Shown: piece by piece, positions 156 through 25,175 of the stretch
Numbering within the stretch: position 1 is the first letter of the stretch
Layout of the letters: every line of letters begins with the position of its first letter
Assembly (NCBI GenBank): GCA_964646765.1
Contig: CAZYIA010000001.1
Span: 217,339-272,104, forward strand
Source: an uncultured Candidatus Saccharibacteria bacterium
GTDB taxonomy: Bacteria; Patescibacteriota; Minisyncoccia; Phycocordibacterales; UBA9973
Length of the DNA stretch: 54,766 nucleotides
Direction of reading: 5' to 3'
Notes under the pieces: generated by a model
The model's input: only the letters and a program-made list of their open reading frames with translations
Told to the model about the DNA's origin: nothing
Databases searched by the model: none
Program-made: the position numbers and the translations under genes

Positions 156-1901
156 TTAAAACACTTCCTTTTTATAGCAAGCATCACAATAAATTATTGT
201 TCCCTTTCCTTTTTGATACGTTGTTTCAAAAACGAGGCCACATGTGCTGGCGCCGTGTTCATGCTCGTTGTTATTTTTGTAGACGCCATTTGTAGAATGT
301 AGACCATCACACATACATGTTTCGTTTCGCAACTTCGTTGGGTTTCGGTAGGCCAAACGTCGATAGTAGCGGCAGTTTGGACACTGGCGCGGTACTGGAA
401 TTTTCATCCGACGATAAAATTCGAGTTCGTCTTTGATAACGCGAAATGCTTTGGTGCAGCCATGAGTACAGCTTCCCGCATGTTCGCAAGTAACGGTTTC
501 TTTTAGAATACTGTCAGTAACATCGGCAATATGTTCTGGTATGCCATCAATTTGAAGCGTTGGTACGTAACTTTTTTCAGCTGGATCCACCCAGTCAAAA
601 CCTGCGCCGGTTGCTTCTTTTTTTGTTTTTGGAAAATATTCTTGGGCAACGGTATCGTTATATGGAAATGGCGAGGAAGAGACTGGAAAATATTCGCCAT
701 ATTCACTTGTTTGCCGCATATGAGCGATAATTTTGTCGCGAAGTTCGATGTATTCCTCTTTTGTATATTGCTTATTTAAAATGCAATACTCTTTATTACT
801 TAAACCACTACAGGCAAAACAGTTTGAACAGTTTTTAAGAAACCAACTGTACGAACACTCGCGCGAATCAGCTGCGCGAACGGTAAACATACACTTGTTT
901 GCCGCAGTAGTTGAAGTTGCTTCGTATACAAGCGAAGAATTTCGGCCGCCAGAATACGCATCCATAGAGTTCGAGTAATCCATTTGATCCCAAATGTATG
1001 CACAGTCTTCGCATTTTTTGATGTTGTAGGAGTTTCGGCAGTTTTTTGAATCTTTAATGAAGTCACCGAAAACATTAACTGAGCGCAAAATAGAAAGGTT
1101 CTTTCGTGGAAACTTTAAAATAAATTCCTCGAACTCTTTGAGTGCCTGCTTTTGGCCAGAATAGGTAGCCAAATTATATTTCATAACTATGGCGTTATAT
1201 TCATCGCGTGAATATTGCTCATTCTTAAAACAATATTGTTTATTGCGAAGATCGGTACACATAAAGCAGTTCACGCAGCCTGAACAGTTATAGAGAAAGA
1301 GTGACTCAGAACATTTTTCGCAGTTGTGTAAAAACTTGCTGTTATTGGACGCGTTCGTGTCAAAGCATTCGTATAAATATTCAGATTGCTCTTTTACCTG
1401 AAAACAATCGGCACAGTAGCTCGATTTGTTACCGCGATACGTATAGAGCATGTTATTCGAGTCGTGTGTGCGTGAGCAGAGGTAGCAATTGGCGCTGCGG
1501 CTCATGTCCTGGTTATAATCACAATTCTGAGAAGCTTGGATATAGAGAGATGGCAGCGGTACTATTTTTAGGAATTCAAGGAATTGAGCGAAGAATGGCT
1601 GGCTAAAATCGAAATCTCGGCCATACTGCATTGGATCAAAAGCATCAGAAAAGTAGTGCTCACGATCGGCAACTTTAAAAGCACATTCTGGACGATAGAT
1701 TGAAATAATATCTTTGCCAGTAATATCACACTTTCGACGATAGAGATTTCGCTCGTTACGGTGCACCATACGACGGATACAGCGGCATTCAGGGCATTGT
1801 GTCGGCGCTGGAACGTCCATTTTTTGGTAAAAATCCAAATCTTCCGGCTCGATAGCAAATGAGCGGCTACAGTTTTTACAAGTTCTAGTTTCTGGGTTCA
1901 T
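156..1901 (-). CDS. Cys-rich zinc-ribbon repeat protein, paralog 1
   Basis: ORF 156..1955; start moved to MNPETRTCKNC (1901) to match the other paralogs. CxxC...CPxCR modules at both ends; NKxYC..N.QY..EEY motif twice. Confidence 0.85.
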   Translation of the reverse strand: MNPETRTCKNCSRSFAIEPEDLDFYQKMDVPAPTQCPECRCIRRMVHRNERNLYRRKCDITGKDIISIYRPECAFKVADREHYFSDAFDPMQYGRDFDFSQPFFAQFLEFLKIVPLPSLYIQASQNCDYNQDMSRSANCYLCSRTHDSNNMLYTYRGNKSSYCADCFQVKEQSEYLYECFDTNASNNSKFLHNCEKCSESLFLYNCSGCVNCFMCTDLRNKQYCFKNEQYSRDEYNAIVMKYNLATYSGQKQALKEFEEFILKFPRKNLSILRSVNVFGDFIKDSKNCRNSYNIKKCEDCAYIWDQMDYSNSMDAYSGGRNSSLVYEATSTTAANKCMFTVRAADSRECSYSWFLKNCSNCFACSGLSNKEYCILNKQYTKEEYIELRDKIIAHMRQTSEYGEYFPVSSSPFPYNDTVAQEYFPKTKKEATGAGFDWVDPAEKSYVPTLQIDGIPEHIADVTDSILKETVTCEHAGSCTHGCTKAFRVIKDELEFYRRMKIPVPRQCPNCRYYRRLAYRNPTKLRNETCMCDGLHSTNGVYKNNNEHEHGASTCGLVFETTYQKGKGTIIYCDACYKKEVF

Positions 1902-2265
1902 AGAATTCAATTTGGTTTCCATCAGGATCAGAAGTAAACGTAAACCGGGCGCCACTTGCCCCAGTGGTTATTGGGCAAAATACTAACCCTTTTTCACTCA
2001 AATTCCTAATTGATTCTTCAATTTCCGGTACCTCAAAAGCAATATGTCGAATACCAAGAATATCAAGATCACTCACATTATTTCCCTTTTTCTTATCTTC
2101 GAATTCCCAAATTTCAACTCTAAAATCATACAGCTTAAGGAAAACTGCTTTACCTTTCAAATCCCGTCGTTCGAAACTTCGCTCAGTTTCAAAACCAAAC
2201 GATTCATAAAAAGCTCGACTTCTTTCTAGATTTGAAACAGTAATTGCAACATGGTGAATCTTCAT
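1885..2265 (-). CDS. VOC/glyoxalase family protein
   Basis: IHHVAITVSNLERSRAFY, HIAFEV and DPDGNQIEF motifs. Confidence 0.9.
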   Translation of the reverse strand: MKIHHVAITVSNLERSRAFYESFGFETERSFERRDLKGKAVFLKLYDFRVEIWEFEDKKKGNNVSDLDILGIRHIAFEVPEIEESIRNLSEKGLVFCPITTGASGARFTFTSDPDGNQIEFYEPRN

Positions 2266-2279
2266 GGCAAAAGTATAGC

Positions 2280-4004
2280 TTACTCAAATTCCGCACGAAA
2301 GCACTCAGCACAGTATGGTTTGTAGCCTTGTTTGGTCTCGTAGGCAGAGAGAATTTCTTTGCCGCACTTAAAGCAAACATCCTGTGTAACTCGAAGATTA
2401 TTTACCATAGCGAAACGATTCATGATGCGCTGGTATGGTGCATCGGTAGGTAGTGCCACATGATTTTGTTTATAAAATTCGATTTCCTGTGGAACAAGTC
2501 GAAACGGTTTACCTGAATGTTCACCAATAATGGCAGTAGTTAAGACATCATTCGTAACATCATTGATGTTGTCAGGAAGTTCGGCGACAGAAATAGTTTT
2601 AATGTTTTTTGTGTCAGTTTCTATATCATCCTGCCAAAATAGATTACGGGCGAGCGCTTCTTCTTTCGTCATAGGATAAATAATGTGTGCAAGAGAGCTA
2701 TTGTACGGATACGGAGCATACTGCATTGGGAAAAATTCACCGTACTCTCCCCTTTTCAGCATTTCAGTTTTTATAGCGTCTACTTTTTCAAAATATTCTT
2801 TTGGTTCGTATACTTTATTAAAAATGGCATAGGAAACATTTTTTAAGCCGATACAGCCGAAAAGGTTTGTGCAGTTATTACATGACATGGTGTATTCAGA
2901 ATCTATAACCTCTTTTCCCGCAAAGGAAAACTTCACATTCGCCGAGTGCAGGCCAACATTTTGACATTCGTAGAGTCGCTCAGAAAATCCAGAAAACGAG
3001 ACGTCCATGAGATCTTTAGTGTGATTTAACATCTGACCATAACGTACATGTTCTGAGTTTTCAGACTGGAAAATCATATACCCGTCTTTTACCTCTTTTA
3101 CATCGTTGCCGGTAACGTTGAGAGACTGATAGATGTGGGTTGCTCGTATTGGGTTTTGCTTCAAGAATTCTAAAAATTTTGTTTTATATTCACGGACTAT
3201 TTTTTGACTACCAAGATCAATTTCACTTCTGCGCTTTTGGTATTCCTCTTTCGTTAGTTGTTCATTGAACCAGCAATATTTTTTATTACGAAGATTAACG
3301 CAACCAAAACAATTTGAGCAATTACGGCAGTCGTAGATGAAGTCGCACTCAATACATTCAACTGAAAAAGATGCGTATGAGCATTTAAAGCAACGGTCGG
3401 TAATAACATTTTCGTATAAATTTTCACCACCGCGTATATAGTACGAATCAACAATATTGCGCGAATCCGTAAAAATTGAGGCGCTATACAAAAGATTTTC
3501 TGATGTCCAAGCACCAAAAACATAGTATGCATTTTTCATGCCGCGACCGTAAAAGGCGTAGTCGCTATTGATACAGTTTGGCCCACGGCGAACACCCGGA
3601 TGCGGAACTTCTTTTAGGAGCTCAAAGTAGTGCTCAAAGAATGACTTCTCTGGACTAACTTCTTTTCCATAATTACGCGGATCCCACGCATCAGAATAAT
3701 ATGTGTCGTAATCATACATTTTCCACGGGATAACTGGTGCGGTGAGTGAAATCATCGTGTCTGTATGCCCCGGAACATCGCATTTGCGACGATACATATG
3801 CGAGTAGTTAGCAAATGCTAAACGACGACGTCTACGGCAGGTTGGGCACAGTTTGGGAGCCGGAACACGAAGCATGTTTAGGAGCTCTATATCTGGAGCA
3901 GTAATTTCAAAATCAGTTTTACAGTCCTCACAAGTTCGAGTGTGAGGAATAAGAGATTTCAAAATCTCATCTAATGCGGTATCAAATTGTGGAGTTTTAG
4001 ACAT
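2280..4004 (-). CDS. Cys-rich zinc-ribbon repeat protein, paralog 2
   Basis: 574 aa; CEDC...CPTCR at the N-terminus; C-terminal CFKC-x17-CAEC. Confidence 0.85.
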   Translation of the reverse strand: MSKTPQFDTALDEILKSLIPHTRTCEDCKTDFEITAPDIELLNMLRVPAPKLCPTCRRRRRLAFANYSHMYRRKCDVPGHTDTMISLTAPVIPWKMYDYDTYYSDAWDPRNYGKEVSPEKSFFEHYFELLKEVPHPGVRRGPNCINSDYAFYGRGMKNAYYVFGAWTSENLLYSASIFTDSRNIVDSYYIRGGENLYENVITDRCFKCSYASFSVECIECDFIYDCRNCSNCFGCVNLRNKKYCWFNEQLTKEEYQKRRSEIDLGSQKIVREYKTKFLEFLKQNPIRATHIYQSLNVTGNDVKEVKDGYMIFQSENSEHVRYGQMLNHTKDLMDVSFSGFSERLYECQNVGLHSANVKFSFAGKEVIDSEYTMSCNNCTNLFGCIGLKNVSYAIFNKVYEPKEYFEKVDAIKTEMLKRGEYGEFFPMQYAPYPYNSSLAHIIYPMTKEEALARNLFWQDDIETDTKNIKTISVAELPDNINDVTNDVLTTAIIGEHSGKPFRLVPQEIEFYKQNHVALPTDAPYQRIMNRFAMVNNLRVTQDVCFKCGKEILSAYETKQGYKPYCAECFRAEFE

Positions 4005-4016
4005 CCTAAGTGTTTG

Positions 4017-5765
4017 TTACATTACCTCTTTCTGATAGCAGGACTCACAGAAAATTGTTTCCGGGCGTTCAGGAGCGTATGAAGTTTGAAATTCATTTTT
4101 ACACTGGCCACTGTGATCATGATTGGATTGACTGCACATACAATTTCTGTGCCAAAGTTTATAGGGAAAGCGGAACGTGAGGCGTTCGTAGAAGCGAGCA
4201 TTTGGTGATTTACGCGGCAGTGGAATTTTGAGTCGCTTATAGAGGGAAAGTTCTTGCGAGGTTATACGAAAAGCGCCTGGCGAATAGTCATTATCTCTGT
4301 CTTCACACTCTATAACTTCATTAATAATAGAATCGGAAATGTCTTGAATAGCATCAGGGATTTTTGAAAGTGGCATAGTAACCTGATATTGGCTTTTTTC
4401 TTTTGTTCGCCAGGTAAAACCTTTTGCTTTTGCGCCAGCTTCAGTGAGTGGATAGTAATCATGCGCCGGTGTTTCGTTATATGCAAAAGGAGAAATTTCT
4501 GAAGGAAAAAATTCACCAAATCTGTATATGCGGCCAAGGGCATCTTGGTACGGCATGACATTCATGTGCTCAATAATTTTTGGCACCAAGACCTCGTATT
4601 CTTCTTTGGTGTATTGCTTATTGAAAATACAATACTGCTTATTCCGAAGAGCGACGCAACCAAAAAGGTTGCTACTTTGATGGCAAAAGAGCGAGTAGTA
4701 TATGTTTGAACATGTCCAAACCATGGCAGACATAAACATTCGTTGAGCATTCTCCCCTGCTGACATAGTTTCGTAACTGGTTTCGTAGTTCACTCCACCC
4801 GCAAAAAGATCGTAGCAATCACTTACATTCGAGAAGGCATAACCGGTAAATTTACACTGCTCCATTTTGTTAGCAATATCAAAACATTCATGGCAATTTC
4901 GAGCATTACGGATATGGTTTCCAGTTACATTTTCTGACTGTAGGATATCGGCAAACTTTTTCGGGAACGTGCGAGCAAAGTCATAAAATTTTGCCAGATT
5001 TTTTTGTAGTGTTTGATGTGAACCGTCACGATATTCTTTTATTTTTTGGTCGTACTCTTCTTTAGAATATTGAACATTAAAAATACAGTGCGATTTATTA
5101 CGGAGCTCAACACAACCAAAGCAATCTTGGCAGTTATAGCAGTCCCACATGAGATGTGAATCGATACAATTATGCGAGAAATACGTGTAGCTTGATTGAT
5201 AACAACCCTTTGATTTATAGCCCATGTAACACGATTCCATATTCTCGCATCCTTCTTGGTCGCAGGAATTCTTGGTTCGCATAGTTTGATGAAGATATGA
5301 AGAGTCTTCATTCATGTCACTAGCGAATGCTAAATAGCAGTTTTTACATTGATAGGTAAAGTTACAAAAATCACTGTTTGCATTCTGAAGATTAGTTGCA
5401 TGTGGTTGCGGCACGACAGCAATTAGTTCCTTCAACTGCTCAAAAAATGGCCGAGAAAAATCGTAGTCTTTCCCGTACTCTAAGCTATCCCAAGCATCAC
5501 TCCACCAATATTCTTGTTCATATACGGGGAATGGCACGTCGGAATGGTAGTTCGCAAGCAGCATTTTCTCACCATCCTTAGTAATGCATGGCCGCTTATA
5601 CAAATTGTGCTCATTACGCCAAACTAAGCGGCGAATAAGCCGACATTCAGGACAAAAGGTAGGCGGTGGAACTTTTATTTTTTCGTAAAACAAAAAATCC
5701 TCTGGTTCGATAGTGAATTCCAGTTTACAACTCTGACAATTTTTTGTTTCGGAATTTTTTATCAT
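4017..5765 (-). CDS. Cys-rich zinc-ribbon repeat protein, paralog 3
   Basis: 582 aa; same architecture as the other paralogs; start overlaps the stop of paralog 4 (TAATG). Confidence 0.85.
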   Translation of the reverse strand: MIKNSETKNCQSCKLEFTIEPEDFLFYEKIKVPPPTFCPECRLIRRLVWRNEHNLYKRPCITKDGEKMLLANYHSDVPFPVYEQEYWWSDAWDSLEYGKDYDFSRPFFEQLKELIAVVPQPHATNLQNANSDFCNFTYQCKNCYLAFASDMNEDSSYLHQTMRTKNSCDQEGCENMESCYMGYKSKGCYQSSYTYFSHNCIDSHLMWDCYNCQDCFGCVELRNKSHCIFNVQYSKEEYDQKIKEYRDGSHQTLQKNLAKFYDFARTFPKKFADILQSENVTGNHIRNARNCHECFDIANKMEQCKFTGYAFSNVSDCYDLFAGGVNYETSYETMSAGENAQRMFMSAMVWTCSNIYYSLFCHQSSNLFGCVALRNKQYCIFNKQYTKEEYEVLVPKIIEHMNVMPYQDALGRIYRFGEFFPSEISPFAYNETPAHDYYPLTEAGAKAKGFTWRTKEKSQYQVTMPLSKIPDAIQDISDSIINEVIECEDRDNDYSPGAFRITSQELSLYKRLKIPLPRKSPNARFYERLTFRFPYKLWHRNCMCSQSNHDHSGQCKNEFQTSYAPERPETIFCESCYQKEVM

Positions 5766-7519
5766 TAGTTAACTTCCTTTTGATAACAACTCTCACAATA
5801 CACTATTTCTGGGCGATTTGGTGCATATGAGGTTTCGAATTCATTTAGACAATTTCCACGATGATCATGATTTTCTTTTGTACACATACAGGTGCGATGC
5901 CAGAGTTCAAGAGGATTACGACGTAATATTCGAGCATGGTGACGGCAGTGAAAACAGCGTCGAGGAATTGGAATTTTGAGGATACGATAAAAATTGAGTT
6001 CGTTTGGAATAATTTTATAGTTACGCTTACAGTTAATACAAGCCAGAATCTCGTTAACCATCGTATCAGAGATATCGTTGATGCTTTCTGGAATTTTGTC
6101 TTGAGAAAGGGTTCCTTTCCCTATTGTTTGCTGTACATTATCCTGCCATTTAAAGTGGTGAGTTAGTGCCTCTTCACGCGAAAGTGGAATCTGATCGAGG
6201 GCTACTGTTTCGTTATAACCAAACACTGAAAGTTCTGCCGGAAAGAATTCACCATAACGATACACACACCCATTTTTGTCTTTGTACGGCATCGTATTCA
6301 TATGCTCAATAATTTTCGGCATCAGCGCCTCATACTCTTCTTTAGTGTATTGTTTGTTTAAAATACAGTACTGACTTTTTCGAAGCGCTGCGCAACCAAA
6401 AATATGTTTGCAGTCATGGCAGTGCTGGGTATAGCGAATGTCCTGGCTTTTAACAGAAAAAATTCCGAAGAAATTATGATAGGAGTGATCAGCAACAATA
6501 TTTTCATAACATTCGGAGAGTTCTCCACTCATAGTAATATCGTAGGAATCTTTTGGGCTTGCGCCGTAGTCGTAGTAGCGGCAATTCTCGGCGTTATGAA
6601 TACCAAAAGAGTCTTTAACGTTCTTGCAGTTGGTTAATACATCTCCCGTGGAGTAAATACTCTGAAGTATGTACGCATAGCGACGTGGGTATGTGAGGAT
6701 AAATTCGTCGAATTCCTTTTTAGCTCGTTCTACGCCAACAAATGTGTCGAGTTTATAATCAGCTAGAATTTTTTCGTACTCTTCCTTTGAATACTGCACA
6801 TTTTTGAAGCAGTACTTTTTATTACGAAGCCCAGCACACATAAAACAATCGGTGCACCCACGGCAGTCATACATAAATTGCGAATCAATACAGGAAATAC
6901 AAAATTCTCCGTACTTTAGTTGGTAACATTCCGCGCAACTAATACATTCGTAGATACGTTGGTTATGTTCAAGAATATTGAGTGAGTCGCACACATCCTT
7001 GATTTGTTTACCTTCTGGCCCAGCAACTAAAAAACTATACATGACATTTTCAGTACGCCAAGAAGAAAAAAGCATGTAGCAGTTTTTTGAAAACCAGGTG
7101 TCGTGTGTATACTCGCAATTTACACTCGCAATACCATTGTCGTTTACGATGGCAATGTGTGGTACCTTTTGAAGCATTTCACGATACTGGGTAAAAAAAG
7201 GTTTTGAGAAGTCGTAGTCGACACCATAGTCTTTTGGATCCCACTTATCACTCCACCAACATTTATTACAGTACACGGTTATGTCAGATTCTGGTGAATA
7301 CAATGTCACCACTCCTTTACCACAGAGGCCACAGGTTCGATTGTATAACGAGAGATTATTGCGCCATGAAAGACGTCGCTGACTGCGACATTTAGGACAA
7401 AAAGTGGGTTCTGGTACGCCAATTTTTTGGTAGAAACCAATATCATCTGGCTCAATGATAAAAGTTACAGCACAGTTTTGGCACTGTTTGGACTCACTTC
7501 CCATTGTCTGATTATCCAC
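5765..7519 (-). CDS. Cys-rich zinc-ribbon repeat protein, paralog 4
   Basis: 584 aa; all four zinc-ribbon sub-motifs intact, including N-terminal CGLC-x17-CNKC. Confidence 0.85.
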   Translation of the reverse strand: MDNQTMGSESKQCQNCAVTFIIEPDDIGFYQKIGVPEPTFCPKCRSQRRLSWRNNLSLYNRTCGLCGKGVVTLYSPESDITVYCNKCWWSDKWDPKDYGVDYDFSKPFFTQYREMLQKVPHIAIVNDNGIASVNCEYTHDTWFSKNCYMLFSSWRTENVMYSFLVAGPEGKQIKDVCDSLNILEHNQRIYECISCAECYQLKYGEFCISCIDSQFMYDCRGCTDCFMCAGLRNKKYCFKNVQYSKEEYEKILADYKLDTFVGVERAKKEFDEFILTYPRRYAYILQSIYSTGDVLTNCKNVKDSFGIHNAENCRYYDYGASPKDSYDITMSGELSECYENIVADHSYHNFFGIFSVKSQDIRYTQHCHDCKHIFGCAALRKSQYCILNKQYTKEEYEALMPKIIEHMNTMPYKDKNGCVYRYGEFFPAELSVFGYNETVALDQIPLSREEALTHHFKWQDNVQQTIGKGTLSQDKIPESINDISDTMVNEILACINCKRNYKIIPNELNFYRILKIPIPRRCFHCRHHARILRRNPLELWHRTCMCTKENHDHRGNCLNEFETSYAPNRPEIVYCESCYQKEVN

Positions 7520-9995: not shown

Positions 9996-11741
9996 TTAGC
10001 TCACCTCCTTCTGGTAGCATGATTCGCAGTAAATTCGTTCTGGTCGCTCTGGAGCATAAGAAGTTTCAAATTCATTTAGACACTTTCCCTGATGGTTATG
10101 CTTCGATTCCTCGCACATGCACGAGCGATGCCAAAGCTTCATTGGATTTCGTTCCTTTAGACGATTATAGTGGCGGCAGTTGTAGCAAAATTGCGGAAGA
10201 GGTACATCCAGTTTTTTATACAGTTCTATTTCTTGAGGAACTAATCGGAATGCAGTTGTGCAGCCAGTAACCGAATTTCCTTTTCCCCGACATTCGATAA
10301 CTTCATTGAGTATTGAAGCTGGTATATCTCGAATTGTTTCTGGAATAGAATCGGTTGGCATTGTAATTTGATAGTTTCTTTCACTCGGTTCACGCCAGCC
10401 AAAACCACGTTCGAGAGCTTCTTCTTTTGTGAGTGGATAATATTCTTGAGCGATAGTTTCGTTATAGAAAAAGGGTGAAGTATCATGAGGAAAAAATTCG
10501 CCATAAGAAAAAATTCTGCCGACACTATCTATATACGGCATAGTTTTCATATGCTCTATGATTTTTGGAATCAGTATTTCATACTCCTCTTTTGAATATT
10601 GCCTGTTCAAAATACAATATTCTTTATTACGAAGTCCATAGCAGCCAAAAAGATGGGATGAGCCATGACAATTTATAGAGTACCTCACATCAAACGAACC
10701 ATAGACAATAGAACTAAAGAATGTAGAGGAACTCATATTATCAACTACTTCGTATAGTAATTCCCCACCCGACATACCAACGCCAGGGCCAGCATCGTAC
10801 GAATCTTTCATTCGTAGTCCCCAAAAACAGTTTTTAAGGTCCTCAGCTTCTTGAAAGTCGAAGGTATTTTTTGATCGAGTTACCCCAACAAGGTTATCTC
10901 CGGTGGAACCTTCAGCTTTAATATTGTTTGCATATTTATAAAACTGAGTTGAGCAAAACTTTTCAAATTCCTTTTGAAATTTCTCAATTCCAGCTCGTGT
11001 ATGGAGCGCATACTCTTTTTTCTTTGCCTCGTATTCTTCTTTTGTATACTGAACGTTAAAAATACGCCGTGAAGCATTCCGGAGGTTTATACATCCAATG
11101 CATTCGGTACAATTTTTACAGTTAGAAAGAAACCGTGAATCACTGCATTCTTGCGAGTTAAATGAAAAAGCCGTTCGGTAGCATTTTGTACAGTTAACTA
11201 GTTCGTAGGAAAGTTCATTTTGAAAGCCAATGTATAAATCTCCCGACTGACGGTTCTCAACAACACGATTACTAAAGAGAGTATCTTCATTATGTTCAGA
11301 TCCAGAAACCATATGGCAGGCTTTATCTCCTTCTGAAACATTACAGTAGGTGCAATTCACCAGATTAGTTACCGAAAGACCAACTTGAGGCACACTTCGA
11401 TATAGTTCTTTAAACTGAACAAAAAATGGCTTTGAGAAATCATAAACATGACCATAAGAGAACGGATCCCAGGAGTCACTCCACCAGGAGCGGTCATCAT
11501 AAGCGGTAACTTTTGACTCAGGGTGAAAAATGGAAATCATCTGCTCGTTTTCATGGCCTGGAGCAGCATTTAATCTCTTATACAATGTTCGTTCGTTACG
11601 AAACATCATTCGTCGCTGTGATCGGCAATCGAAACAAAAAGTAGGTGGTGGAACTTTTATTTTATTGTAGAAATCAAAATCTTCAGGATCAATAGTAAAT
11701 TCCTTTTTACAGCTCTGACATTGTCGTGTGCTGCTTTCCAT
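9996..11741 (-). CDS. Cys-rich zinc-ribbon repeat protein, paralog 5
   Basis: 581 aa; same architecture; starts 5 nt after the rplI stop. Confidence 0.85.
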   Translation of the reverse strand: MESSTRQCQSCKKEFTIDPEDFDFYNKIKVPPPTFCFDCRSQRRMMFRNERTLYKRLNAAPGHENEQMISIFHPESKVTAYDDRSWWSDSWDPFSYGHVYDFSKPFFVQFKELYRSVPQVGLSVTNLVNCTYCNVSEGDKACHMVSGSEHNEDTLFSNRVVENRQSGDLYIGFQNELSYELVNCTKCYRTAFSFNSQECSDSRFLSNCKNCTECIGCINLRNASRRIFNVQYTKEEYEAKKKEYALHTRAGIEKFQKEFEKFCSTQFYKYANNIKAEGSTGDNLVGVTRSKNTFDFQEAEDLKNCFWGLRMKDSYDAGPGVGMSGGELLYEVVDNMSSSTFFSSIVYGSFDVRYSINCHGSSHLFGCYGLRNKEYCILNRQYSKEEYEILIPKIIEHMKTMPYIDSVGRIFSYGEFFPHDTSPFFYNETIAQEYYPLTKEEALERGFGWREPSERNYQITMPTDSIPETIRDIPASILNEVIECRGKGNSVTGCTTAFRLVPQEIELYKKLDVPLPQFCYNCRHYNRLKERNPMKLWHRSCMCEESKHNHQGKCLNEFETSYAPERPERIYCESCYQKEVS

Positions 11742-11746
11742 AACAC

Positions 11747-12196
11747 TTATTGTCCGAGAATTTTTACAGTGAATGCTGCTTTCGGTAAGTTATGAATACC
11801 ACCGAGTTCAACAGTATGTTCACCTGTTTTTTTGAGGTGTTCACGAAGATGAATAACTTCGGTTGGAAGTGCAATACCTTCATCTGTACGAATTGCTGCC
11901 TTGAGATCTTCAGAAGTTATACCAGCAAAGAGTGAACCTGAGGAATTTACTTTTCTGGTTAACGTAATAGTTTTACCATCAAGCTTTTTAATTTCTCGAG
12001 CTAAAAGTTCAGCCCGAAGATGCTTCTCGCTTTCTTCGTATTCTTTCGCCTTTTCGATAAGAGCAACTCGAGTTGGAGTCGCTAACTCAGCAAGTTTTTT
12101 TGGGAAAAGAAAGTTCTGGGCATATCCTTCGGAAACCTCTTTAACTTCACCTGTTCGGCCAATTTTGGCAACATTTTGGAGCAGTAATACCTTCAT
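11747..12196 (-). CDS. rplI: 50S ribosomal protein L9
   Basis: MKVLLLQNV..IG..GEV.EV..GYA.NFL.P and GSLFAGIT motifs. Confidence 0.97.
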   Translation of the reverse strand: MKVLLLQNVAKIGRTGEVKEVSEGYAQNFLFPKKLAELATPTRVALIEKAKEYEESEKHLRAELLAREIKKLDGKTITLTRKVNSSGSLFAGITSEDLKAAIRTDEGIALPTEVIHLREHLKKTGEHTVELGGIHNLPKAAFTVKILGQ

Positions 12197-23452: not shown

Positions 23453-25123
23453 CTACAAAGTTAATCGAACCTTTCGTAATTCGTCGTATGGGATTTTACC
23501 ACCAAGAAGTTCATAGACTGGTCCGAGTAATCGCTTTCCACCTTCTTGAGTACCAATTTTTTGAAAAGCACTCGTAATTTTCTGTAACCTACTAGAGGAC
23601 ATACTTTCTCGAATCTTAAAAAATGAAATAGTTGGATCTTTTTCTTTCGATGTTTCTAAGTGATCAAGAATAGTTCCAACGGTTAATGAACGCTCCTTGG
23701 CAATAACCTCTATTGTCTTTCCTTCAAGAAACATTTCGAGGGTAATGTGAGCTGTTGGTTTTTTCTTTTCTCTGGTTCGAGCGCCATTTTCGTGAACAAA
23801 CCTATCTTCTAACTTCCTAAGCTCAGCCTTAGAGAGACTCTGGAGTTCCCTCACTGCCCTTTCTGACTGCCCACGAAATTCTACATCTTTTCCTTCTACC
23901 TCCTCATGAACTAAAAAAGCATTCGGGTGAAATCCTTTCAATGAAAGTCCTTCTAGACTTTTCACCCGTGAAAGTGCGACGTAACCCATACCACGCTCAA
24001 ATGGTGCTGAGAGATCAATTTCGGCTGCATCAAGAGTTAACCCTTGACTTTTATGTACTGTAATTGCCCAAGCAAGGCGTAAAGGATACTGAATAAGCTC
24101 GGCTTTTACTTTGCCGTTTTCTTCGATCGTAAATGAGGCTGGCTCAACATCAATTTTTGTTCCGTCAGTAAGTTCTACACAAATACCTTCATTTGAACAC
24201 GACGCCACTGTACCGGTAGTACCGTTTACATATCCTGCTTCAAAATTGTTTTTTACAAACATTACTCGCGCACCTTCTTTGAGCCGCAGTCTTTCCGGAG
24301 CCAAACAGCCTTTTTTGAGAGCAAGCACAAGAGCATCTGGCCCATGAGCACGCATGATGTACTCATGGACTTCGTTTTCAATATTCTCTAGTTCATCGTT
24401 ATTTTCTTCATTAACATTTATATTGAAAGCGTAAATTTTTGTCGGCATTTCTTCTTTGAGTGGAGCTCCAATCCGAGTTGTAAGAAGTGCGTGATGTGAT
24501 TCAGTTACTGCATTTTGCCGAATGGCATTTAAAATCTCTAAGTACGTTGTATCGTCTTGGCGAAACTGTTCTTCTAAATAGCAAACCACTGGATCAAGTT
24601 CTTTCCAGGCTTGCGAATGGTAGGCAAAATGTGAACTATTTTCTTCATCAAGCTGAATTATGTCTTGATCGTAATTTCTCTGTTTCGTTACCGGCGGCAG
24701 CTGGAAAAAGTCTCCTGAAAAAATAACCTGCATGCCACCAAATACCATTGGAATGCCTCGAAGCGCTCGTACCGCCCTATCGACCATATCAATTCGATAG
24801 TCATGAAGCATAGACACTTCATCAATAATTAACACTTGCGCCCCACGAACTTGATTGCGTAAATAAGATCGTTCAGCAAGTTCTTCTGCTTCAGAAAATG
24901 AAAGCGACTCGCGAATACCAATACCACTCCAAGCATGGATAGTAACGCCTCCAAGATGAGTAGCGGCGATACCCGTAGAAGCTGTAATGGCTACCGGAAT
25001 ACCCTTATCTCTAAGCCAGCCAATATATTGATTCAGTACATGAGTTTTACCACTTCCGGCGGCACCAGTAATAAAAGCACTCCGACCTGTTTTCAAAATA
25101 GTGAGTGCTTCTTCCTGAGTCAT
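23453..25123 (-). CDS. PIF1-like (RecD-type SF1B) DNA helicase with C-terminal helix-turn-helix
   Basis: ITGAAGSGKT, ASTGIAA, IIDEVSM, GDFFQLPPV, AWAITVHKSQG.TLD, YVALSR; start moved to MTQEEAL. Confidence 0.92.
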   Translation of the reverse strand: MTQEEALTILKTGRSAFITGAAGSGKTHVLNQYIGWLRDKGIPVAITASTGIAATHLGGVTIHAWSGIGIRESLSFSEAEELAERSYLRNQVRGAQVLIIDEVSMLHDYRIDMVDRAVRALRGIPMVFGGMQVIFSGDFFQLPPVTKQRNYDQDIIQLDEENSSHFAYHSQAWKELDPVVCYLEEQFRQDDTTYLEILNAIRQNAVTESHHALLTTRIGAPLKEEMPTKIYAFNINVNEENNDELENIENEVHEYIMRAHGPDALVLALKKGCLAPERLRLKEGARVMFVKNNFEAGYVNGTTGTVASCSNEGICVELTDGTKIDVEPASFTIEENGKVKAELIQYPLRLAWAITVHKSQGLTLDAAEIDLSAPFERGMGYVALSRVKSLEGLSLKGFHPNAFLVHEEVEGKDVEFRGQSERAVRELQSLSKAELRKLEDRFVHENGARTREKKKPTAHITLEMFLEGKTIEVIAKERSLTVGTILDHLETSKEKDPTISFFKIRESMSSSRLQKITSAFQKIGTQEGGKRLLGPVYELLGGKIPYDELRKVRLTL

Positions 25124-25175
25124 AGTCAGCAGATTGTAACATACTGAGGTAACGCAAAAATAAAATATTTGCACG

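What the first reader, a model, noticed from the sequence alone, without database searches (positions are those of the whole stretch)
2280..7519. Each paralog is internally duplicated: two zf-trcl plus CxxC-x17-CxxC modules around a doubled Cys repeat core
Seen: the N-terminal CxxC..F.I...D..FY.K..VP.P..CP.CR..RR...RN...LY.R.C recurs near the C-terminus as C..C...[FY].I...EL.FY...KIP.PR.C..CR...R...RNP..LW.R.C. Each is followed by a second finger with exactly 17 residues before the last CxxC (CGLC-x17-CNKC in paralog 4, CFKC-x17-CAEC in paralog 2, C-x17-CESC in paralog 3, C-x17-CDAC in paralog 1). Established knowledge: the zf-trcl (PF13451) and CxxC-x17-CxxC (TIGR04272) pair occurs as small stand-alone proteins and in fusions with RNA-related proteins. 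Inference: a pseudo-two-fold protein with two nucleic-acid-binding clamps and a beta-solenoid-like core.
Basis: partly seen in the sequence, partly recalled or inferred. Interest (0 to 1): 0.65.

Follow-up and report, generated by a model that had tools for sequence, protein, structure and literature searches.

The report
Zinc-finger-capped twin solenoid protein family
Each of these tandem genes of a tiny-genome Patescibacteria bacterium encodes a 580-residue protein that is duplicated inside itself (a zinc-finger pair at each end, two cysteine-lined beta-solenoids in the middle); the family is very large, has never been described, and its function is unknown.

Summary
In all five window paralogs (14 in the genome) the N-terminal module recurs at the C-terminus. 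Shuffle z-scores are 10-23, and 3 in the degenerate copy at 2280-4004; the profile self-match has E 4e-19. The core is a tandem duplicate (z 13-21; E 3e-28).

The end modules are divergent relatives of Pfam zf_Tbcl (PF13451) followed by zf_Tbcl_2 (the CxxC-x17-CxxC finger). The window copies score below Pfam's thresholds. However, a stand-alone 103-aa protein that passes both thresholds aligns to the N-module (E 7e-20) and the C-module (E 1e-15).

The core has a strict 3-residue/12-residue periodicity with Cys, Ser or another small residue at every third position. That fits a narrow beta-solenoid. It has no Pfam, PDB or Foldseek match.

Caveats:
- The module order is mirrored (zf-core-core-linker-zf), so at least two duplication events are needed.
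- Only the outermost finger at each end is near-universal. In the window only the copy at 5765-7519 keeps all four.
- Nucleic-acid binding and 3D two-fold symmetry were not testable.

Context: the paralogs are ancient, form tandem arrays and have a patchy distribution (about 6% of Patescibacteria genomes sampled). They often lie beside a soluble VirD4-like ATPase pair, but that ATPase is near-universal in the phylum and so does not depend on them.

The parts
5765..7519 (-). pD, 584-aa paralog (annotated start probably M6). It is the only window copy with all four Cys4 fingers.
   Evidence: ORF. AF2 model has pLDDT 83 and pTM 0.83. Ligand map.
7256..7495 (-). pD N-module, aa 9-88. A zf_Tbcl-like finger (C13, C16, C41, C44) is followed by a CxxC-x17-CxxC finger (C63, C66, C84, C87).
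   Evidence: PF13451 19.4 bits and PF23477 19.6 bits. Matches residues 490-579 by hhalign at E 3.6e-19.
6755..7198 (-). pD core1, aa 108-255: a helix, a 12-residue-period Cys/Ser-ladder solenoid, then the LRNKxYCxxNxQYSKEEY helix.
   Evidence: Matches residues 266-403 by hhalign at E 2.8e-28. Periodicity.
6311..6724 (-). pD core2, aa 266-403: the tandem duplicate of core1.
6053..6310 (-). pD linker X, aa 404-489 (YGEFFP...SPFxYNET...W). Strongly conserved and acidic, with no counterpart in the N-terminal half.
   Evidence: Conservation, charge, pLDDT 91-96.
5783..6052 (-). pD C-module, aa 490-579. A zf_Tbcl-like finger (C494, C497, C522, C525) is followed by a C-(CxxxxHxH insert)-C-x17-CxxC finger (C544, C557, C575, C578).
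4017..5765 (-). pC, 582 aa. Modules: N-module 5505-5750, core1 5031-5447, core2 4575-5000, X 4320-4574, C-module 4035-4319. The second N finger and the first C finger have lost their Cys. Its start overlaps the pD stop (TAATG).
2280..4004 (-). pB, 574 aa, the most divergent copy. Modules: N-module 3699-3944, core1 3219-3641, core2 2772-3188, X 2538-2771, C-module 2298-2537. Only the first N finger and the last C finger (CFKC-x17-CAEC) keep their ligands.
   Evidence: (N vs C z = 3.0)
156..1955 (-). pA, 599-aa ORF (true start probably a later ATG). Modules: N-module 1653-1892, core1 1176-1595, core2 729-1145, X 501-728, C-module 174-500.
9996..11741 (-). pE, 581 aa, beginning 5 nt downstream of rplI. 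Modules: N-module 11484-11732, core1 11010-11426, core2 10560-10979, X 10305-10559, C-module 10014-10304.

Best explanation
Each gene encodes a cytoplasmic, zinc-stabilised scaffold protein of about 580 aa, built from two internal duplications.

Shown here:
1. A pair of treble-clef zinc fingers (zf_Tbcl-type followed by CxxC-x17-CxxC/zf_Tbcl_2-type) sits at the N-terminus and again at the C-terminus.
2. Between them lie two tandem copies of a module of about 145 residues. Each copy is a helix, then about nine turns of a narrow 12-residue-per-turn solenoid with Cys, Ser or another small residue at every third position, then a conserved LRNKxYCIxNKQY[ST]KEEY helix.
3. The two halves are joined to the fingers by unrelated, highly conserved linkers (WWSDxWD...FF.Q and YGEFFP...YNET). 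The module order is therefore mirrored, and the architecture needs at least two separate duplications or fusions.
4. The 14 paralogs are ancient. Each has closer relatives in other organisms than in its own genome.
5. The outward-facing solenoid positions are conserved within an orthologue group but differ between paralogs.

Inferred:
- The fingers bind Zn. Roughly four to five ions in pD and two in pB.
- The basic Arg-rich helices of the first finger of each pair (CRxxRR...RN) contact a polyanion such as RNA or DNA, or a common partner.
- Each paralog's solenoid surface recognises its own ligand.
- The proteins would then act as a repertoire of rigid two-ended adaptors, possibly working with the neighbouring soluble VirD4/TrwB-like ATPase pair.

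My odds: architecture and duplication about 0.9; zinc binding about 0.85; paralog-specific adaptor role about 0.45; nucleic acid as the finger ligand about 0.35.
For: Duplication:
- Shuffle z-scores and hhalign E 2.8e-28 and 3.6e-19.

Finger identity:
- All 14 PF13451 matches (E up to 1) in the genome fall inside this family, and two exceed the cut-off.
- Some homologues' C-modules pass both PF13451 (27.9 bits) and PF23477 (27.3 bits).
- Stand-alone P0391 passes both and aligns to both modules.

Treble-clef topology:
- In the AF2 model each CxxC pair sits either in a beta-hairpin or at the N-terminus of a helix. The N- and C-modules share the order strand-strand-helix-helix-strand-strand-helix.

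Solenoid:
- Autocorrelation peaks only at multiples of 3, with a maximum at 12, in both cores and not in the termini.
- The in-phase columns are C, S, V, L, A or T.
- The model's secondary structure shows beta-bridges every 3 residues with a 12-residue repeat over 359-390.

Modularity:
- A Saccharimonadales locus has the finger pair (103 aa) and the double core (306 aa, matching pD 106-409 at E 6.8e-53) as two adjacent genes.

Ancient paralogs.

Paralog-specific surfaces: outward positions are 0.65-0.89 conserved within pD orthologues, against 0.44-0.52 across the family.

Charge: the first fingers carry +2.5 and +5.3, the cores -3 to -4, and linker X -5.4.

Zinc: CxxC-x17-CxxC proteins of Methanosarcina mazei bind Zn by ICP-MS (PMC12704099).

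ATPase neighbourhood:
- 29 of 79 loci have a TrwB_AAD_bind/TraG-D_C ATPase within 10 kb.
- In this genome the only two such genes bracket two paralogs.
Against: - No experimental data exist for any member.
- The window copies do not reach Pfam or NCBIfam thresholds.
- Nucleic-acid binding is inferred from charge only.
- The ATPase link is weakened by phyletic pattern. The ATPase is in 299 of 301 phylum genomes, the family in only 16-17 of 301.
- The zf_Tbcl_2 finger on the long ATPase does not track the family. It is present in a relative without the family and absent from three genomes with many copies.
- The five window copies are not next to the ATPases.
Confidence: 0.6

Rival explanations
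1. The Cys-rich cores are metal-cluster binding sites (Fe-S, or metallothionein-like Zn/Cu storage) rather than a structural solenoid. The family would then be a set of redox or metal-buffering proteins.
For: - About 36 Cys per protein.
- A CxxCxxCxxC run (C219, C222, C225, C228) is 76-93% conserved in core1.
- Neighbouring genes include CutA1, cytochrome b5 and a glyoxalase-fold protein.
- AF2 confidence is low exactly in the cores, as expected if cofactors are missing.
Against: - In-phase positions exchange freely between C, S, V, L, A and T across the family.
- Core2 keeps only two to three conserved Cys.
- pB has 23 Cys against 39 in pA.
- The strict period-3/12 pattern runs for more than 100 residues, which is typical of a packed ladder.
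- No Fer4-type or other metal-cluster family was matched in Pfam or NCBIfam.
Confidence: 0.12
2. The proteins are substrates (secreted effectors) or substrate-recruiting adaptors of a type IV coupling-protein-like motor. The arrays would be a cargo repertoire delivered to host cells by these episymbionts.
For: - Arrays lie beside or between TrwB/VirD4-like ATPase genes in 29 of 79 loci, against about 2% expected by chance for one ATPase locus per 1-Mb genome.
- In G000 two copies are inserted between the long and short ATPase genes. These two genes are adjacent in relatives lacking the family.
- The C-terminal module is basic, like many T4SS signals.
- Thousands of Patescibacteria T4CP homologues are not linked to virB4 (PMC12102498).
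Against: - Each paralog is 60-82% identical across genera. That is far more conserved than typical effectors.
- Zinc-locked rigid folds are poor secretion substrates.
- The ATPase here has no evident N-terminal membrane anchor by reading its sequence, and it is universal in the phylum while the family is in about 6% of genomes.
- No signal peptide. No PADLOC or PHROG match.
Confidence: 0.18
3. The end-to-end and core-to-core resemblance is compositional (Cys-rich low complexity or convergent zinc-finger spacing), not a true duplication.
For: - Zinc fingers with CxxC pairs arise repeatedly.
- The pB N vs C score is weak (z = 3.0).
Against: - Composition-preserving shuffles give z of 10-23.
- The shared motif includes many non-Cys positions (F-x-I, FY, K, VP-x-P, CR-xx-RR, RN, LY/LW-x-R).
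- hhalign probabilities are 99% or more.
- Controls between finger and core modules give z of about 0.
Confidence: 0.02

Closest known systems
Pfam zf_Tbcl (PF13451, formerly zf-trcl), 'probable treble clef domain'
   Same: - C-x2-C-x3-[FY]-x-[IF]...FY..K...P..C-x2-CR pattern.
- Matches profile positions 4-44 of 48.
- It is the best or second-best Pfam hit for every N-module.
- A member that passes the cut-off (P0391, 33.6 bits) is homologous to both end modules.
   Different: - The window copies score 15-20 bits, below the 24-bit cut-off. The C-terminal copies score 10 bits or less.
- Here the domain is fused to a 400-residue double solenoid and occurs twice.
- The function of zf_Tbcl itself is unknown.
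CxxC-x17-CxxC domain (NCBIfam TIGR04272; Pfam zf_Tbcl_2, PF23477), e.g. the small zinc-binding proteins of Methanosarcina mazei (PMC12704099)
   Same: - Exact x17 spacing before the last CxxC in every C-module and in the pD N-module.
- Position directly after zf_Tbcl.
- The same genome has genuine members: a 60-bit RGG-rich small protein and a 39-bit match in the long ATPase.
   Different: - Below threshold in the window (13-20 bits).
- In about two-thirds of members the first CxxC is split by a 10-30 residue insert carrying C, H-x-H.
- In 44% of members the N-terminal copy has lost its ligands.
Narrow 12-residue beta-helices such as the Tenebrio molitor antifreeze protein (recalled from memory, not tested)
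   Same: 12-residue period, and Cys or other small residues stacked inside a very thin solenoid.
   Different: - Cytoplasmic and not disulfide-dependent.
- Cys at every third rather than every sixth position.
- No Foldseek match to any solved beta-helix.
Type IV coupling proteins (TrwB/VirD4/TraD) and their adaptor or substrate partners
   Same: Gene neighbourhood with TrwB_AAD_bind + TraG-D_C ATPases.
   Different: - The ATPases are soluble-looking, orphan (not near virB4; PMC12102498) and universal in the phylum, regardless of whether the family is present.
- No known T4CP adaptor has this architecture.

Membership tests
zf_Tbcl (PF13451) | HMM score at or above the gathering cut-off (24 bits), for the window's own modules | tested here: not met
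   N-modules score 15.2-19.7 bits. C-modules score 10 bits or less. The full-length proteins list no PF13451 match at E up to 1.
zf_Tbcl (PF13451) | HMM score at or above the cut-off somewhere in the same protein family | tested here: met
   Two of the 14 genome paralogs score 25.9 and 25.6 bits. Homologues' N-modules score 27.2 and 24.0 bits, and one C-module 27.9 bits.
zf_Tbcl (PF13451) | Significant homology to an undisputed member | tested here: met
   P0391 (33.6 bits) aligns to the N-module at E 6.6e-20 and to the C-module at E 1.1e-15 by hhalign.
zf_Tbcl (PF13451) | Four zinc ligands, in two CxxC pairs about 24 residues apart | tested here: met
   N-terminal copy: Cys4 in 14 of 14 paralogs. 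C-terminal copy: 10 of 14, lost in pB and pC. Family-wide the figures are 95% and 79%.
zf_Tbcl (PF13451) | Treble-clef topology (zinc knuckle in a hairpin, second ligand pair at the N-terminus of a helix) | tested here: inconclusive
   The secondary structure of the AF2 model fits for all four fingers. It is a prediction, no coordinates were available, and there was no Foldseek hit.
CxxC-x17-CxxC (TIGR04272 / PF23477 zf_Tbcl_2) | Two CxxC pairs separated by exactly 17 residues | tested here: met
   pD N-module has CGLC-x17-CNKC and pB C-module has CFKC-x17-CAEC. pA, pC, pD and pE C-modules keep C-x17-CxxC, with the first pair split by an insert.
CxxC-x17-CxxC (TIGR04272 / PF23477 zf_Tbcl_2) | HMM score at or above the cut-off (36 / 27 bits), for the window's modules | tested here: not met
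   PF23477 scores 13.1-19.6 bits and TIGR04272 17.1 bits or less. Other genome paralogs reach 27 bits on TIGR04272. Homologues reach 27.3 bits on PF23477.
CxxC-x17-CxxC (TIGR04272 / PF23477 zf_Tbcl_2) | Binds zinc | not testable with these tools
   Shown only for M. mazei small proteins (PMC12704099).
Beta-solenoid proteins | Regular sequence period corresponding to one turn, with inward-facing small or hydrophobic ladders | tested here: met
   Autocorrelation peaks at 3, 6, 9 and 12 (maximum at 12) in both cores only. In-phase columns are C, S, V, L, A or T.
Beta-solenoid proteins | Structural match to a solved solenoid | tested here: not met
T4CP (VirD4/TrwB) accessory system | Conserved gene neighbourhood with the ATPase | tested here: met
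   29 of 79 loci have the ATPase within 10 kb. It is also seen in G000 and in the split Saccharimonadales form. It does not hold for the five window copies.
T4CP (VirD4/TrwB) accessory system | Co-occurrence of the two components across genomes | tested here: not met
   The ATPase is in 299 of 301 genomes. The family is in 17 of 301 and its core module in 16 of 301.
Fe-S / ferredoxin-like Cys clusters | Invariant Cys ligand set and a profile match | tested here: not met
   No such Pfam or NCBIfam hit. The Cys positions are substitutable by S, V or L.

The most novel reading that the evidence does not exclude
The family is a lineage-specific repertoire of up to a dozen or more rigid two-ended adaptors. 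These would plug different cellular ligands (RNAs, DNA ends or proteins) into the universal, soluble, orphan VirD4-like ATPase pair of Patescibacteria. The fingers would dock on a common polyanion or motor surface, and each paralog's solenoid face would choose the cargo. Together this would be an undescribed cytoplasmic ATP-driven machine. The split two-gene form in Saccharimonadia would be its minimal version.
Probability: 0.15. Interest if true: 0.8.

Novelty: new variant of a known kind. Interest (0 to 1): 0.55.

Why it matters
- The family has thousands of members: more than 6,885 hits in one capped search, and 3,795 clusters at 50% identity.
- It takes up 1.8% of this 1.34-Mb genome, in an organism under strong genome reduction, yet every copy is annotated 'hypothetical' with no domain.
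- This report gives it an anatomy that can be tested:
  - four predicted zinc sites, of which the outer two are essential;
  - two Cys-ladder solenoids with paralog-specific conserved faces;
  - two asymmetric conserved linkers.
- It shows that the modules also exist as separate genes. That tells experimenters which pieces to express.
- It tempers an attractive idea. The neighbouring VirD4-like ATPase is universal in the phylum and cannot depend on this family.

Tried and rejected
- Whole-protein Pfam and NCBIfam scans gave no significant family.
- A profile search of PDB sequences gave only LIM-domain noise at E of 0.2 or more. LIM membership is rejected: Pfam LIM hits score 13-19 bits against a cut-off of 22.9.
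- PADLOC and PHROGs gave nothing for the family, so neither a defence nor a phage origin is supported.
- A search for single-core ancestors with a core profile returned mostly fragments on short contigs, or genes probably broken by an alternative genetic code. Only the double-core form without fingers could be confirmed as a real gene.
- A stand-alone finger-pair gene in another genome (G029) has neither a core gene nor an ATPase next to it.
- The idea that the zf_Tbcl_2 finger on the long ATPase couples it to the family was checked in 8 genomes and did not correlate.
- Literature searches found no description of the family.
- Model coordinates are not exposed, so the two halves could not be superposed and the relative placement of the end modules is unknown.
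Full report
**What is there**

The first 12 kb of the window carry five minus-strand ORFs of 574-599 aa: pA 156-1955, pB 2280-4004, pC 4017-5765, pD 5765-7519 and pE 9996-11741. They are collinear and 30-46% identical. The finding's coordinates cover pB, pC and pD.
- pD and pC overlap by one base (TAATG), and pC and pB are 12 nt apart.
- The neighbouring genes are ordinary small enzymes and housekeeping genes: glyoxalase-fold, CutA1, EEP hydrolase, GNAT, cytochrome b5, and rplI directly upstream of pE.
- The whole genome is 1.34 Mb and 98% complete, and holds 14 full-length copies. Together they make up 1.8% of the DNA.

**Check of the observation**

Smith-Waterman scores against 500 composition-preserving shuffles:
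- N-module vs C-module: z = 20.0, 3.0, 10.2, 22.9 and 14.9 for pA to pE.
- core1 vs core2: z = 13-21 for all five.
- Controls (finger module vs core): z between -1.3 and 1.5.

Profile self-comparison:
- 66 sequences: residues 110-252 match 268-400 at E 1.4e-19, and 5-88 match 486-579 at about E 1.5e-15.
- 146 diverse representatives: E 2.8e-28 and 3.6e-19.

The internal duplication is real in every paralog. It is weakest in pB, whose first C-terminal finger is degenerate.

**Identity of the end modules**

Direct scans are consistent but below threshold:
- When the modules are cut out, PF13451 (zf_Tbcl) is the best or second-best hit for every N-module. It scores 15-20 bits against a cut-off of 24 and covers profile positions 4-44 of 48.
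- PF23477/TIGR04272 (CxxC-x17-CxxC) follows it, at 13-20 bits.

Three further results lift this to a well-supported homology:
1. All 14 PF13451 matches (E up to 1) in the genome lie in this family, and two exceed the cut-off.
2. Some homologues' modules pass. One C-terminal module scores 27.9 bits on PF13451 and 27.3 on PF23477.
3. A stand-alone 103-aa protein from a Saccharimonadales contig passes both cut-offs (33.6 and 32.6 bits). It aligns to the family's N-module at E 6.6e-20 and to its C-module at E 1.1e-15.

In the AF2 model (pLDDT 83, pTM 0.83; termini above 90) each CxxC pair lies either in a hairpin or at the N-terminus of a helix. That is the treble-clef arrangement. The two end modules also share the same order of secondary-structure elements.

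**Zinc ligands are not uniformly kept**

| Finger | Cys4 in the 14 genome paralogs | Intact in 146 diverse members |
|---|---|---|
| First N-terminal | 14 of 14 | 95% |
| Second N-terminal | 6 of 14 | 56% |
| First C-terminal | 10 of 14 | 79% |
| Last C-terminal (C...C-x17-CxxC) | 14 of 14 (one is CCCH) | 97% |

- Only 45% of the diverse members have all four. In the window only pD does.
- About two-thirds of members carry an insert with C and H-x-H between the first two ligands of the last finger.

**The core**

Column-profile autocorrelation in residues 125-245 and 285-395 peaks at every multiple of 3 and is highest at 12. The termini show nothing of the kind.
- The in-phase columns are dominated by Cys and Ser, with V, L, A and T as alternatives.
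- The model shows beta-bridges every three residues with a 12-residue repeat.
- An off-register profile match (E 1.5e-6) confirms sub-repeats.

This fits a very thin four-sided solenoid with one inward residue per side. The free exchange of Cys with Ser, Val and Leu, and the poor Cys conservation in core2, argue for packing rather than metal ligation.

**Architecture and origin**

The order is fingers - linker L1 - core1 - core2 - linker X - fingers.
- L1 (WWSDxWD...FF.Q) and X (YGEFFP...SPFxYNET...W) are both highly conserved but unrelated to each other. The protein is mirrored in module order but not symmetric.
- One tandem duplication cannot produce this order. It needs a tandem core duplication plus a separate gain of a second finger pair.
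- In a Saccharimonadales contig the finger pair (103 aa) and a double core (306 aa, aligning to pD 106-409 at E 6.8e-53) are two genes separated by one base. They lie next to a TrwB/DUF87-type ATPase. So the modules are separable evolutionary units.

**Family context**

- More than 6,885 relatives appeared in a capped search, all 'hypothetical'. There are 3,795 clusters at 50% identity, almost all 540-615 aa long.
- Named hosts are Paceibacteria-type lineages: Nomura-, Staskawicz-, Lipton-, Giovannoni-, Jorgensen- and Sung-bacteria. Two differently labelled contigs have 29-30% GC and look mislabelled.
- In an even sample of the phylum only 17 of 301 genomes (16 of 248 genera) have the family. 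The core profile finds the same set apart from one genome (G029) whose only match is a stand-alone finger-pair gene.
- Where present it is multi-copy and in arrays: 55 of 79 loci hold 2-9 copies.
- Every one of the 14 paralogs has a closer relative in another organism (39-82% identity) than in its own genome (35-50%). The duplications are therefore old.
- Outward-facing solenoid positions are as conserved within pD orthologues (0.65-0.89) as the fingers. Across the family they are variable (0.44-0.52). This suggests paralog-specific binding faces.

**The ATPase neighbourhood, tested**

- A TrwB_AAD_bind + TraG-D_C ATPase lies within 10 kb in 29 of 79 loci, often on both sides of an array.
- In this genome the only two such genes bracket two paralogs about 55 kb from the window.
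- In relatives without the family the two ATPase genes are adjacent.
- This non-random linkage agrees with earlier notes of this scan.

Two new tests temper it:
- The ATPase is present in 299 of 301 genomes of the phylum, so it cannot depend on a family found in about 6% of them.
- The zf_Tbcl_2 finger on the long ATPase occurs in a relative lacking the family, and is absent from three genomes with many copies.

PMC12102498 reports 5,713 VirD4-like genes in Patescibacteria, of which only 148 lie near virB4.

**Mechanism**

I commit to a zinc-stabilised, rigid, two-ended adaptor.
- The basic first finger of each pair (net +2.5 and +5.3, with conserved CRxxRR...RN helices) contacts a polyanion or a common partner.
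- The acidic solenoids (-3 to -4) and linker X (-5.4) present paralog-specific surfaces.
- Zinc binding is inferred from the ligand geometry and from ICP-MS data on M. mazei CxxC-x17-CxxC proteins (PMC12704099).
- Nucleic-acid binding, the two-fold arrangement in space and any coupling to the ATPase are inferences.

Rivals are a metal-cluster protein, a T4CP cargo or effector, and a compositional artefact. They are weighed in the rival-explanations section; the last is rejected.

**Limits**

No member has been studied experimentally.

Noticed in passing
window 5763-5767 and 4005-4016: The pD stop and the pC start overlap by one base (TAATG). pC and pB are 12 nt apart, with an AGG just upstream of the pB start. 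CutA1, pD, pC, pB, the glyoxalase gene and pA look like one minus-strand operon.
   Followed up: partly
window 11742-12196: pE starts 5 nt after the stop of rplI (ribosomal protein L9), which suggests co-transcription with a ribosomal protein gene.
   Followed up: no
L002 1882-4683 (G000 C1:276882-279683): A 933-aa soluble-looking TrwB/VirD4-like ATPase. It carries a zf_Tbcl_2 finger (33 bits) and a 450-residue Lys/Glu/Pro-rich tail. Homologues occur in 299 of 301 Patescibacteria genomes, usually as an adjacent long and short pair. It also matches phrog_5156 (unknown function) at E 2e-67.
   Followed up: partly
L001 998-1609 (G000 C3:21497-22108): A small Arg/Gly-rich protein with a strong CxxC-x17-CxxC domain (TIGR04272 60 bits, PF23477 58 bits). 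It is a genuine stand-alone member in the same genome and looks like an RGG-type RNA binder.
   Followed up: no
L082 3180-6746 (Saccharimonadales contig DATIIG010000044.1): A split form of the family. A 103-aa zf_Tbcl + zf_Tbcl_2 gene is followed one base later by a 306-aa double-core gene. The database start at 3616 is probably 41 codons too late. Next to them is a convergent DUF8128/DUF87/TrwB-like ATPase.
   Followed up: yes
L054 (JAMPXW010000002.1, labelled Burkholderiales) and L058 (labelled Bacteroidales): These contigs carry family copies. L054 has four copies plus two VirD4-like ATPase genes. Their GC content is 29-30%, so they are probably mis-binned or mislabelled Patescibacteria DNA.
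   Followed up: partly
one search hits P0323 and P0386 (Peribacteria contig of 1.36 Mb); G020:C10:3528-3947: Short 'fragments' of the family in Peribacteria/Gracilibacteria-type genomes, and an in-frame TGA in one G020 copy. These may reflect TGA recoding (genetic code 25) rather than broken genes.
   Followed up: no
window 23453-25174: A 573-aa PIF1-like helicase with a C-terminal HTH_40 domain.
   Followed up: no
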